From Octopus sinensis (Eukaryota), in assembly GCF_006345805.1 (NCBI RefSeq), contig NC_043002.1:53754001-53818000 (forward strand): a stretch of DNA of 64,000 nucleotides, given 5' to 3'. Below are positions 18,436-19,982 of this stretch, piece by piece. How positions within the stretch are numbered: the stretch's first letter is position 1; every line of letters begins with the position of its first letter. A program made the position numbers.

Positions 18436-19940
18436 ATATATATATAATATATATATATATATATACCAATTAAGGACTGAACACGAAAAGTGGACAGTCA
18501 ACATGCTAGATATAGACGTCAAATCGCATTCACCACAAAAGATTATGTTCTCAGATCAAACTCAACACAAAACCATAACAATAAACAAGTGAAAAATATA
18601 CGAAATAAAATAATTACCCATGTACTAAATTAGTTTCAGCTGTTATTTTCCGCAAGGAAAACTGCAGCCATCATCAGCATGGTCCGTTATAAATGTAATT
18701 TGATGGACTAGATGCAAACACGATACCGAAATATCGCGTGCATGGAGTTCAGCCTATTACATTAGAATATATCTTTCAAATGCCTTTACCTTGGCGCGTT
18801 GGAACCCGAGAAAACTAGCCTGCAGCTAATAATTAGCAGCAGTTAATTTATCGGTTACAGAACATATTTATTTATATAAAATTAATTAAGGGTAGAAATT
18901 GATATTTATCAATTAAGACCAGTGGTCTAGCATATTAAAAAAGAATCCGAAGATTAAAATATTTATATATACCAATTAAGGACTGAACACGAAAAGTGGA
19001 CAGTCAACATGCTAGATATAGACGTCAAATCGCCATTCACCACAAAAGATTATGTTCTCAGATCAAACTCAACACAAACCATAGCAATAAACAAGTGAAA
19101 AATATACGAAATACAATAATTACCCATGTACTAAATTAGTTTCAGCTGTTATTTTCCGCAAGGAAAACTGCAGCCATCATCAGCATGGTCCGTTATAAAT
19201 GTAATTTGATGGACTAGATGCAAACACGATACCGAAATATCGCGTGCATGGAGTTCAGCCTATACATTAGAATATTCTTTCAAATGCCTTTACCTTGGCG
19301 CGTTGGAACCCGAGAAAACTAGCCTGCAGCTAATAATTAGCAGCAGTTAATTTATCGGTTACAGAACATATTTATTTATATAAAATTAATTAAGGGTAGA
19401 AATTGATATTTATCAATTAAGACCAGTGGTCTAGCATATTAAAAAAGAATCCGAAGATTAAAATATTTATATATACCAATTAAGGACTGAACACGAAAAG
19501 TGGACAGTCAACATGCTAGATATAGACATTTGTAAAGGCATTTGAAAGATATATTCTAATGTAATAGGCTGAACTCCATGCACGCGATATTTCGGTATCG
19601 TGTTTGCATCTAGTCATCCATCAAAATTTATAACGGACCATGCTGATGATGGCTGCAGTTTTCCTTGCGGAAAATAACAGCTGAAACTAATTTAGTACAT
19701 GGGTAATTATTTTATTTCGTATATTTTTCACTTGTTTATTGCTATGGTTTTGTGTTGAGTTTGATCTGAGAACATAATCTTTTGTGGTGAATGGCGATTT
19801 GACGTCTATATCTAGCATGTTGACTGTCCACTTTTCGTGTTCAGTCCTTAATTGGTATATATAAATATTTTAATCTTCGGATTCTTTTTTAATATGCTAG
19901 ACCACTGGTCTTAATTGATAAATATCAATTTCTACCCTTA

Positions 19941-19982
<42 letters not shown>

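What the first reader, a model, noticed from the sequence alone, without database searches (positions are those of the whole stretch)
18465..19950. Candidate cephalopod retrozyme: 506-nt tandem units each with an intact hammerhead, predicting a circular RNA
Seen: two near-identical minus-strand units with complete type I hammerheads whose predicted GUA cleavage sites are 506 nt apart, a third hammerhead on an inverted arm, no ORF, and (TA)n flanks. Established: Penelope-like pLTRs and metazoan non-LTR retrozymes carry type I hammerheads in tandem repeats. Self-cleavage releases monomers that can circularise, and palindromic helix III allows dimeric cleavage. Inference: a young, possibly active non-autonomous ribozyme retroelement giving a ~506-nt linear or circular RNA. 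Helix III (ACTAA-T-TTAGT) has a 1-nt loop, so it probably works as a dimer between neighbouring units. The inverted arm spans the unit junction, which is what a circular or multimeric template would produce.
Basis: partly seen in the sequence, partly recalled or inferred. Interest (0 to 1): 0.9.

Follow-up and report, generated by a model that had tools for sequence, protein, structure and literature searches.

The report
Hammerhead-ribozyme retroelement inserted in a TA microsatellite
A short non-coding mobile element carrying a self-cleaving hammerhead RNA motif sits as two tandem copies plus one inverted partial copy inside a TA repeat; it is a new example of an already described class of animal elements (retrozymes, dependent on Penelope-like elements), not a new kind of thing.

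Summary
Between two (TA)n tracts lie 2.1 direct copies of a 504-506-nt unit (18466-19527) and an inverted 5'-truncated copy (19532-~19954). Each holds the same type I hammerhead. The predicted GUA cleavage sites on the minus strand are 506 nt apart (H17 at 19129 and 18623), and a third site is at 19697 (+). There is no ORF. A descriptor finds the motif only here in the window, against 1 hit in 200 shuffles.

"Intact" needs qualifying. All core bases are present, but there is an extra U between A9 and G10.1, the 10.1-11.1 pair is a G.U wobble, and helix II is long and interrupted. No Rfam hammerhead model matches, even at E<=10 on 106 nt. These traits, apart from the wobble, are those published for Penelope-like-element (PLE) hammerheads.

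The layout (partial tandem, inverted 5'-truncated copy, microsatellite target) is the published PLE insertion signature. Both arms end at unit-internal UAUAUA stretches and span uncleaved sites. This implies a circular or multimeric RNA template.

I read it as one young insertion of a PLE-dependent non-LTR retrozyme: a new member of a known kind. Activity, circular RNA, copy number and the cephalopod origin remain untested.

The parts
18298..18465 (.). Left (TA)n microsatellite; the presumed target site, on the 3' side of the direct array in sense orientation
   Evidence: TRF: period 2, 88 copies; sequence
18466..19527 (-). Direct array of 2.1 units (sense = minus strand). It consists of a 3' fragment 18466-18622 (157 nt), a complete cleavage-to-cleavage monomer 18623-19128 (506 nt), and a 5' fragment 19129-19527 (399 nt, 5'-truncated).
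   Evidence: the repeat finder D2-D4; blastn of the unit against the window; copy comparison
18618..18682 (-). Hammerhead 1. Helix I is CCAUG/CAUGG. Then come CUGAUGA, an extra U, and helix II (GGCUG/CAGCU, a 2x2 internal loop, GUUUUCC/GGAAAAU, loop UUGC). Then come GAA and helix III (ACUA-AUU-UAGU). H17 is A at 18623.
19124..19188 (-). Hammerhead 2, with the same 65 nt as hammerhead 1. H17 is A at 19129.
19528..19531 (.). Four unmatched bases joining the 5'-truncated ends of the two arms
   Evidence: alignment of the copies; sequence
19532..19954 (+). Inverted, 5'-truncated copy (0.85 unit; sense = plus strand). It covers monomer positions about 340-506 and 1-256. Its outer end merges into (TA)n within the unit's own UUUUAUAUA stretch.
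   Evidence: the repeat finder I1-I6
19638..19702 (+). Hammerhead 3, on the inverted arm, with the same 65 nt. H17 is A at 19697.
19949..19987 (.). Right (TA)n microsatellite
   Evidence: TRF: period 2, 19.5 copies

Best explanation
This is one young insertion of a non-coding, roughly 506-nt hammerhead-bearing retroelement into a (TA)n microsatellite. The element is a non-LTR retrozyme, that is, a non-autonomous element mobilised by a Penelope-like element (PLE).

Shown:
- the anatomy: tandem arm, inverted 5'-truncated arm and (TA)n flanks
- the hammerhead motif and its PLE-type traits
- the absence of an ORF
- the near-identity of the copies

Inferred, how it arose:
- cDNA was made by target-primed reverse transcription on a template longer than one unit. 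That template was either rolling-circle copying of a circular 506-nt RNA or an uncleaved multimer.
- Synthesis was primed on both strands of the nicked (TA)n target at two different unit-internal UAUAUA stretches (monomer positions about 158-165 and about 250-256).
- The two cDNAs, of 2.1 units and 0.85 unit, were joined head to head with a 4-nt filler.

Inferred, how it would work:
- If the minus strand is transcribed through both tandem ribozymes, they would cut after A17 (GUA), most likely as a double hammerhead sharing an extended helix III.
- A host tRNA ligase could circularise it, as shown for other animal retrozymes.
For: Motif:
- The strict descriptor gives 3 of 3 window hits in this locus, against 1 hit in 200 shuffles.
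- The hammerhead secondary structure (-17.4 kcal/mol) equals the MFE of the 65-nt domain.

PLE-type traits listed in Cervera & de la Pena 2014 and seen here:
- a nucleotide between A9 and 10.1
- a long helix II
- a short (5-bp) helix I
- a small, nearly palindromic helix III

Dimer route:
- Helix III scores -0.2 kcal/mol as a hairpin and -8.7 as a duplex.
- The homodimer of the 65-nt domain scores -43.1, against 2 x -17.4 for two monomers.

Retrozyme criteria (Li et al. 2026 preprint, section read; Cervera & de la Pena 2020):
- 2 consecutive units with complete hammerheads
- no ORF
- GC 33.6%
- unit length inside the 51-972 bp range of that preprint
- circular monomer predicted to be highly self-paired: MFE -126.2 against -99.8 +/- 5.6 for shuffles, z = -4.7, 0 of 100 shuffles as low

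PLE insertion signature (Craig et al. 2021, passages):
- partial tandem
- an inverted 5'-truncated copy next to the 5' end
- microsatellite targets including (TA)n
All three are present.

Single young event: there are 7-8 private changes in 1494 aligned nt, and at every variable site the inverted arm carries the majority state.

The motif class recurs in this genome. A relaxed descriptor finds 5 further independent places in the window. This compares with 0.135 hits per shuffled window and a mean of 0.1 (max 2) for 180 decoy core boxes on the real sequence.
Against: - No Rfam hammerhead model matches at any threshold tried.
- G10.1-C11.1, which Cervera & de la Pena call highly conserved, is G.U here.
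- Metazoan PLE hammerheads had low activity in vitro.
- No PLE reverse transcriptase or GIY-YIG endonuclease is in the window. Of 110 ORFs of at least 75 aa scanned (144 found, 34 low-complexity ones dropped), 1 matches RVT_1, which is a LINE fragment, and none matches GIY-YIG.
- Only this one locus of the family is in the window, so dispersal as a mobile family is not shown.
- (TA) runs of at least 6 repeats cover 4.0% of the window, so landing in one by chance is not rare (about 1 in 25).
- No target-site duplication can be read in a microsatellite.
- Having none of the roughly 8 private changes in the ribozymes is not significant. By my own arithmetic, the ribozymes are 13% of the aligned bases, which gives P about 0.33.
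- Four of the 6 differences between units A and B are single-base indels, which could be read errors rather than age.
Confidence: 0.7

Rival explanations
1. The locus is a dead relic. The tandem and inverted copies arose as described, or by DNA-level duplication, but the hammerhead is a crippled variant that no longer cleaves. Nothing is released and no circular RNA forms.
For: No Rfam hammerhead hit. G.U at 10.1-11.1 and an inserted U. The monomeric helix III is marginal at -0.2 kcal/mol. PLE-type hammerheads showed low in vitro activity. There is no sign of selection on the ribozyme after insertion (my arithmetic gives P about 0.33).
Against: All 11 invariant core bases are kept. All three helices pair, and the ribozyme fold equals the MFE. 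The same G.U and C15.2-G16.2 / A17 / C1.1 pattern recurs in two unrelated elements of the window (16867(-) and 49921), which suggests a working local variant rather than decay. The copies are very young.
Confidence: 0.2
2. The locus is a short satellite-like tandem repeat. It was made by replication slippage or unequal exchange plus a fold-back inversion, happens to carry a hammerhead (as with the pDo500 satellite of cave crickets), and involved no retrotransposition.
For: Only one locus is seen in 64 kb. The window has other local tandem duplications with periods of about 1185, 864 and 404 bp. Microsatellites, which favour slippage, are everywhere.
Against: The two arms end at different unit positions, each at a unit-internal UAUAUA abutting (TA)n; target-primed synthesis predicts this and unequal exchange does not. 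The combination of a tandem arm, an inverted 5'-truncated arm and a microsatellite is the documented PLE signature. Hammerhead satellites are now themselves read as retrozymes.
Confidence: 0.07
3. The layout is an assembly artefact. A repeat was collapsed or mis-joined, giving a false tandem/inverted layout.
For: Craig et al. note that such PLE structures often cause assembly problems. The differences between copies are mostly single-base indels.
Against: The window has no N or gap. The junctions are clean and each copy has its own private changes. The hammerhead motif itself does not depend on the layout.
Confidence: 0.03

Closest known systems
Metazoan non-LTR retrozymes (Cervera & de la Pena 2020, NAR; coral, mussel, axolotl)
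   Same: Non-coding AT-rich tandem units, each with a type I hammerhead. The monomer is predicted to be self-paired and bounded by cleavage sites. A weak helix III implies dimeric cleavage in some families. Mobilisation by PLEs has been proposed.
   Different: The unit is 506 nt, against about 170-400 nt in that paper (but inside 51-972 bp in the 2026 preprint). The hammerhead is of the PLE type (inserted U, long interrupted helix II, no recognisable loop-loop contacts) rather than the classical type I. RNA expression was not tested here. That paper does not mention cephalopods (0 occurrences of octopus, squid or cephalopod).
Hammerheads of Penelope-like elements (Cervera & de la Pena 2014, MBE; Lunse et al. 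2017, seen only as a citation)
   Same: An unpaired base between A9 and 10.1. Helix II longer than usual. Helix I of 4-5 bp. A small palindromic helix III suited to dimers. Pairs of motifs 100-700 bp apart on opposite strands are reported there too.
   Different: Here 10.1-11.1 is G.U, not the conserved G-C. Helix III has a 3-nt centre that allows a weak monomeric hairpin. The motif sits in a 506-nt ORF-less unit, not in the pseudo-LTR of an element with RT and GIY-YIG genes.
PLE insertion architecture (Craig et al. 2021, MBE)
   Same: Partial tandem, an inverted 5'-truncated copy at the 5' end, and insertion into a microsatellite, with (TA)n named for Naiads.
   Different: The (TA)n preference is described for Naiads, which lack canonical hammerheads and are said to be old remnants in cephalopods. 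The 30-40-bp 'tail' is not evident; instead the inverted arm reaches about 91 nt further 3' than the direct arm.
pDo500 satellite of Dolichopoda cave crickets (abstract and passages of PMC2837043)
   Same: Tandem DNA whose name suggests a unit of about 500 bp, with a hammerhead in each unit.
   Different: pDo500 is a long satellite array conserved across species. This locus is a 2.1-unit array with an inverted arm at a single site.

Membership tests
Hammerhead ribozyme, type I | Invariant core: C3 U4 G5 A6 N7 G8 A9, G12 A13 A14, A15.1-U16.1, H17 not G | tested here: met
   CUGAUGA ... GAA, A15.1-U16.1 and A17 are present in all 3 copies.
Hammerhead ribozyme, type I | Three helices around the core, with helix I open (type I topology) | tested here: met
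   Helix I is 5 bp, helix II is 5+7 bp and closed by UUGC, and helix III is closed. The structure energy of -17.4 equals the MFE.
Hammerhead ribozyme, type I | G10.1-C11.1 pair directly after A9 | tested here: not met
   An extra U follows A9, and the pair is G.U.
Hammerhead ribozyme, type I | Match to a curated Rfam hammerhead covariance model | tested here: not met
   There are 0 hits at gathering score on 64 kb. No hammerhead family appears at E<=10 on 1.7 kb or on the 106-nt domain.
Hammerhead ribozyme, type I | Site-specific self-cleavage | not testable with these tools
   This needs transcription and a Mg2+ assay of monomer and dimer.
PLE-type hammerhead (Cervera & de la Pena 2014) | [quoted passage not shown] | tested here: met
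   U insert, helix II of 5+7 bp, helix I of 5 bp. The criteria were read.
PLE-type hammerhead (Cervera & de la Pena 2014) | Palindromic 15.2-16.2 and loop 3, which allows a dimeric helix III | tested here: met
   ACUAAUUUAGU pairs with itself as 5+5 bp around a U.U mismatch. The duplex scores -8.7 against -0.2 kcal/mol for the hairpin, and the dimer of the domain scores -43.1.
PLE-type hammerhead (Cervera & de la Pena 2014) | Location in the pseudo-LTR of an element encoding RT and GIY-YIG endonuclease | tested here: not met
   The unit has no ORF. None of the 110 window ORFs scanned matches GIY-YIG, and the 1 RVT_1 match is a LINE fragment.
Non-LTR retrozyme | Tandem repeat with at least 2 consecutive units, each holding a complete hammerhead (operational criterion of Li et al. 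2026) | tested here: met
   There are two complete units with cleavage sites 506 nt apart. The criterion was read.
Non-LTR retrozyme | Non-coding, GC below 50%, no LTR/PBS/PPT | tested here: met
   The longest frame is 36 or 50 aa and GC is 33.6%. There are no terminal direct repeats other than the units themselves. PBS and PPT were not searched for specifically.
Non-LTR retrozyme | Multi-copy, dispersed family in the genome | not testable with these tools
   Only this locus is in the window. No eukaryotic genome collection was on hand. There were 0 matches in bacterial and archaeal genomes.
Non-LTR retrozyme | Expressed as linear and circular RNA of unit length | not testable with these tools
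   This needs RNA data. Only the predicted self-paired circular fold is available (z = -4.7).
PLE-mediated insertion | Partial tandem plus an inverted 5'-truncated copy at the 5' end, inside a microsatellite | tested here: met
   The signature was read.
PLE-mediated insertion | A 30-40-bp 'tail' extension at one end | tested here: inconclusive
   No separate tail is seen. The inverted arm extends about 91 nt further 3' than the direct arm.

The most novel reading that the evidence does not exclude
The locus may be a readable fossil of one retrozyme integration event. A circular 506-nt RNA would have been copied by rolling-circle, target-primed reverse transcription started from both strands of a (TA)n target, at two different internal UAUAUA stretches. 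That would be direct structural evidence that PLE machinery mobilises animal retrozymes from RNA circles. The 2020 review calls the responsible machinery undeducible from sequence (passage).

In addition, this genome may use a local hammerhead variant (G10.1.U11.1, possibly a way of losing the C11.1-G12 CpG) that Rfam models do not see. In that case Rfam-based hammerhead counts in such genomes (for example, 235 in the giant squid paper) would greatly understate the real number. Here there are 6 independent motif sites in 64 kb.
Probability: 0.25. Interest if true: 0.6.

Novelty: new member of a known kind. Interest (0 to 1): 0.4.

Why it matters
Animal retrozymes and PLE hammerheads are established, so the existence of one more family is not surprising.

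The value of this locus is its clean anatomy. It combines a PLE-type ribozyme with a retrozyme-type unit and a PLE-type insertion scar. The 3' ends sit at microhomology with the microsatellite target, and uncleaved ribozyme sites lie inside the cDNA. This bears on two open points in the field: which machinery mobilises non-LTR retrozymes, and whether the template is a circle or a multimer.

It also shows that curated covariance models miss this hammerhead variant. That matters for annotating ribozymes in AT-rich invertebrate genomes.

In the held library I found no description of cephalopod retrozymes. The searches gave only an Rfam count for the giant squid. Supplements were closed, however, and the cephalopod origin of this window is itself only weakly supported.

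Tried and rejected
- Rfam: nothing relevant in three searches. The snR41, mir-297, Spd-sr37 and CRISPR-DR57 rows sit far below their gathering scores and lie on low-complexity or helix II sequence. I rejected them.
- tRNA or SINE origin: ARAGORN found 0 genes in the window.
- Other copies of the unit in the window: none beyond the locus. The remaining blastn rows are TA-rich or A-rich low-complexity matches with E>=2e-4. The apparent extension of the inverted arm to 20016 in that table is alignment through (TA)n.
- Autonomous partner in the window: Pfam on 24 ORFs of at least 120 aa, then on 110 ORFs of at least 75 aa. The only hit was one LINE-type RVT_1 fragment, with no GIY-YIG.
- Homology between the 506-nt unit and the neighbouring hammerhead element at 16662-17142(-): none. 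The local alignment score was 26, and 22 of 200 shuffles scored as high.
- Organism: the LINE RT fragment gave 209 hits, of which 120 were listed. Only one of those carries an organism name (Argonauta hians, 48% identity, rank 6). The protein atlas gave only 'Eukaryota, Arthropoda/Chordata commonest'. So the cephalopod origin is consistent but not shown.
- DNA transposon or foldback reading: rejected. The two outer ends are not symmetrical, since the inverted arm runs about 91 nt further into the unit, and no transposase is present.
- Tolerance of a G.U pair at 10.1-11.1: the search and the passages gave nothing decisive.
- One energy value (100000) came from a mis-sized structure string of mine and is void.

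Unchecked:
Family copy number, other insertion sites, related species and linkage to PLE genes therefore stayed unchecked.
The supplementary figures and tables of Cervera & de la Pena 2014 and 2020 may list mollusc or cephalopod motifs that I could not see.
- Lunse et al. 2017 is not held. I saw it only as a citation. De la Pena & Flores 2001 was seen only as cited.
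Full report
**What is there**

The region lies in AT-rich sequence (window GC about 33%, no N) that is full of microsatellites. (TA) runs of at least 6 repeats cover 4.0% of the window, and there are 42 TRF rows with score at least 100.

From left to right:
- (TA)n, 18298-18465
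- a direct array, 18466-19527, made of unit A (506 nt), unit B (504 nt) and 52 nt of a third unit
- four unmatched bases, 19528-19531
- an inverted copy, 19532 to about 19954, covering 0.85 unit
- (TA)n, 19949-19987

Units A and B differ at 6 of 507 columns (2 substitutions, 4 single-base indels). The inverted arm is 97.7% identical to the units. TRF missed the array only because its longest period is 500. No other copy of the unit is in the 64 kb.

**The hammerhead**

The hammerhead reads on the minus strand for the direct array and on the plus strand for the inverted arm. The same 65 nt occur three times. In order they are:
- helix I, CCAUG/CAUGG
- CUGAUGA
- an extra U
- helix II: GGCUG/CAGCU, a 2x2 internal loop, GUUUUCC/GGAAAAU, closed by UUGC
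- GAA
- helix III, ACUA-AUU-UAGU
- A17, the cleavage site, followed by C1.1

Is it more than chance? A strict descriptor hits the window three times, all here, against 1 hit in 200 dinucleotide shuffles. The ribozyme secondary structure (-17.4 kcal/mol) is co-optimal with the MFE of the domain.

The motif is not canonical. A U sits between A9 and G10.1, the 10.1-11.1 pair is a G.U wobble, and helix II is long and interrupted. No Rfam hammerhead family matches, either at gathering score on the whole window or at E<=10 on 1.7 kb or on the 106-nt domain alone. I take this as a limit of the models rather than evidence against the motif.

**Which kind of hammerhead**

Cervera & de la Pena 2014 (text parts 1-2 read) describe the hammerheads of metazoan Penelope-like elements. 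They have a longer helix II, a helix I of 4-5 bp, an unpaired base at the 5' end of stem II (between 9 and 10.1), a conserved G10.1-C11.1, and a small palindromic helix III or none. They work as dimers, with low activity in vitro. This motif has all of these traits except G-C at 10.1-11.1.

Helix III as a hairpin is worth -0.2 kcal/mol. As a duplex between two copies it is worth -8.7. The homodimer of the 65-nt domain scores -43.1, against 2 x -17.4 for two monomers.

**The motif class recurs in the window**

I ran a relaxed descriptor: no helix I requirement, helix II of at least 5 bp, helix III of at least 3 bp with any loop. It finds five further independent places, starting at 16867(-), 49921(+)/49920(-), 25020(+), 10728(+) and 55334(+). 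Controls gave 27 hits in 200 shuffles (0.135 per window). With 180 decoy core boxes on the real sequence, the mean was 0.1 distinct starts (max 2), against 9 distinct starts for the true boxes.

Two of the five places are convincing.
- 16801-16874(-) has a 7-bp helix I that the descriptor did not ask for. It also has G.U at 10.1-11.1, a loop-less palindromic helix III (ACCAUGGU, -13.2 kcal/mol as a duplex and 0 as a hairpin), and A17.
- The centre of a perfect 240-bp palindrome at 49801-50040 carries another motif on each arm, next to (TA)n(TG)n.

The target and these two share features the descriptor did not require: G10.1.U11.1, C15.2-G16.2, A17, C1.1-G2.1 and a palindromic helix III. Their helix I and II sequences differ while still pairing. 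The 16.7-17.1 kb element has no sequence similarity to the 506-nt unit, so these are separate families using one local ribozyme style.

Since C11.1-G12 is a CpG in DNA, the U11.1 could reflect CpG loss that the wobble pair tolerates. This is my inference and is untested.

**What the layout says**

Craig et al. 2021 (passages) describe PLE insertions as partial tandems, often with an inverted 5'-truncated copy next to the 5' end. These insertions are biased to microsatellites, with (TA)n named for Naiads, which makes target-site duplications unreadable. Non-autonomous relatives give multicopy head-to-tail insertions. This locus shows exactly that pattern.

In sense orientation both arms point their 3' ends outward to the (TA)n and their truncated 5' ends inward.
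- The direct arm ends at monomer positions about 158-165, where the unit itself reads UAUAUAUA.
- The inverted arm ends at about 250-256, where the unit reads UUUUAUAUA.

Two different internal ends, each at microhomology with the target, fit priming by the nicked (TA)n DNA on a template with no fixed 3' end.

Both arms also contain uncleaved ribozyme sites, and the direct arm is 2.1 units long. The template was therefore longer than a cleaved monomer: either a circle copied round and round, or an uncleaved multimer. The review of de la Pena et al. 2020 (passages) proposes just such more-than-unit cDNAs from circular templates. It also says that animal retrozymes show no motif revealing which machinery moves them. 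Here the scar points to PLE-type integration.

A caution applies. With 4% of the window being (TA) runs, the microsatellite location alone is weak evidence.

**Age**

Each direct segment has two private changes. The inverted arm has one private cluster at monomer positions 423-434, upstream of helix I. At every variable site the inverted arm otherwise carries the majority state. That makes 7-8 events in 1494 nt, a star-like pattern expected from one template.

None of the changes falls in a ribozyme, but by my arithmetic this is not significant (P about 0.33). The indel-rich spectrum might include read errors.

**Retrozyme criteria**

- The unit has no ORF: the longest stop-to-stop frame in the circularised unit is 36 aa on the sense strand and 50 aa on the antisense strand.
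- GC is 33.6%.
- The circular monomer is predicted to be far more stable than shuffles. The sense strand scores -126.2 against -99.8 +/- 5.6 (z = -4.7). The antisense strand gives z = -4.6. In both cases 0 of 100 shuffles were as low.
- The locus meets the operational rule of Li et al. [quoted passage not shown]
- The unit length lies inside their 51-972 bp range, though above the roughly 170-400 nt of Cervera & de la Pena 2020 (abstract, section 14).
- That preprint argues from vertebrates that non-LTR retrozymes derive from PLE pseudo-LTRs (abstract, Results). This locus, which combines a PLE-type ribozyme with a PLE-type scar, agrees.

**What is missing**

- There is no PLE gene in the window. 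Of 144 ORFs of at least 75 aa, 34 low-complexity ones were dropped and 110 scanned. One matches RVT_1 and none matches GIY-YIG.
- That RT belongs to a 5'-truncated, stop-ridden LINE at 22397-23632(-), whose relatives carry an AP-endonuclease domain.
- Its only organism-named relative among the 120 listed is from the octopod Argonauta hians, at 48% identity. The protein atlas gave no useful taxon. 'Cephalopod' is thus consistent but not established.
- Copy number, other insertion sites, expression, cleavage and circularisation could not be tested.

**Literature**

Searches of the held library gave no description of cephalopod retrozymes:
- retrozyme, hammerhead, cephalopod
- 'hammerhead ribozyme' plus octopus, 5 papers
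- hammerhead plus ribozyme plus cephalopod, 7 papers

The only relevant item is an Rfam-based count of 235 Hammerhead_1 matches in the giant squid genome paper (passage). The search was badly framed and uninformative. Supplements were closed.

**Verdict**

It is overstated in calling the ribozyme canonically intact and in its novelty.

I file it as a new member of a known kind: a PLE-dependent non-LTR retrozyme with a PLE-type hammerhead variant. Interest is moderate because of the unusually legible insertion anatomy and the blindness of Rfam to this variant.

Noticed in passing
window 16662-17142 (-), ribozyme 16801-16874: A second, unrelated hammerhead-bearing element sits 1.6 kb from the target, as a single copy of about 480 nt. 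It lies between (TGTA)n (17143-17227) and (CA)n(TA)n (from about 16661). It has a 7-bp helix I, G.U at 10.1-11.1, the loop-less palindromic helix III ACCAUGGU (dimer only), and A17 at 16808. Its 3' tail of about 146 nt resembles the 157 nt of the target's 3' fragment, but there is no sequence similarity.
   Followed up: partly
window 49801-50040: A perfect 240-bp palindrome (120-nt arms, no spacer, 99% complementary) whose centre is CATCAG|CTGATG. Each arm starts with CUGAUGA and carries a hammerhead-like motif: a 7-bp helix II with a long loop, the palindromic helix III ACGAUCGU, and A17. Helix I is cut off by the centre. The right flank is (TA)n(TG)n. It may be a head-to-head pair of 5'-truncated copies or a snap-back product.
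   Followed up: partly
window 25020-25060 (+), 10728-10773 (+), 55334-55385 (+): Three weaker hammerhead-like hits of the relaxed descriptor. The one at 25020 has the PLE hallmarks (extra A after A9, GGCUG/CAGCC with G-C at 10.1-11.1) but no convincing helix III or helix I. The other two are doubtful.
   Followed up: partly
window 45793-47559: A tandem duplication with a period of about 1184-1186 bp and about 100% identity. It includes (TA)n, (CA)n and (ATAG)n tracts. Its nature is unknown.
   Followed up: no
window 6284-6841 and 36150-37160: Two more local direct repeats: a period of 404 bp at 98% identity, and a period of 864 bp at 97%.
   Followed up: no
window 22397-23965 (-): A 5'-truncated LINE broken by stops. 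There is an RVT_1 match in 22946-23401 (E = 3e-8), and relatives carry an AP-endonuclease domain. Upstream, an ORF at 23633-23965 has a weak CCCH zinc-finger match below the curated cut-off. GC rises to 0.44 here. The best organism-named relative is from Argonauta hians at 48% identity.
   Followed up: partly
whole window: Microsatellite density is extreme: (TA) runs of at least 6 repeats cover 4.0% of the window, along with many (ATAG)n, (TG)n, (AGAT)n and (AAG)n arrays. No tRNA genes were found, and no Rfam family reaches gathering score.
   Followed up: partly
window 18466-19954: Four of the 6 differences between units A and B are single-base indels, three of them in short base runs. These could be sequencing or assembly errors, so the copies may be even closer than they look.
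   Followed up: no
window 61184-61573 (+): An ORF of 129 aa has a sub-threshold Pfam match to 7TMR-DISM_7TM (23.3 bits, cut-off 29). It is probably a spurious hit on hydrophobic low-complexity sequence.
   Followed up: no
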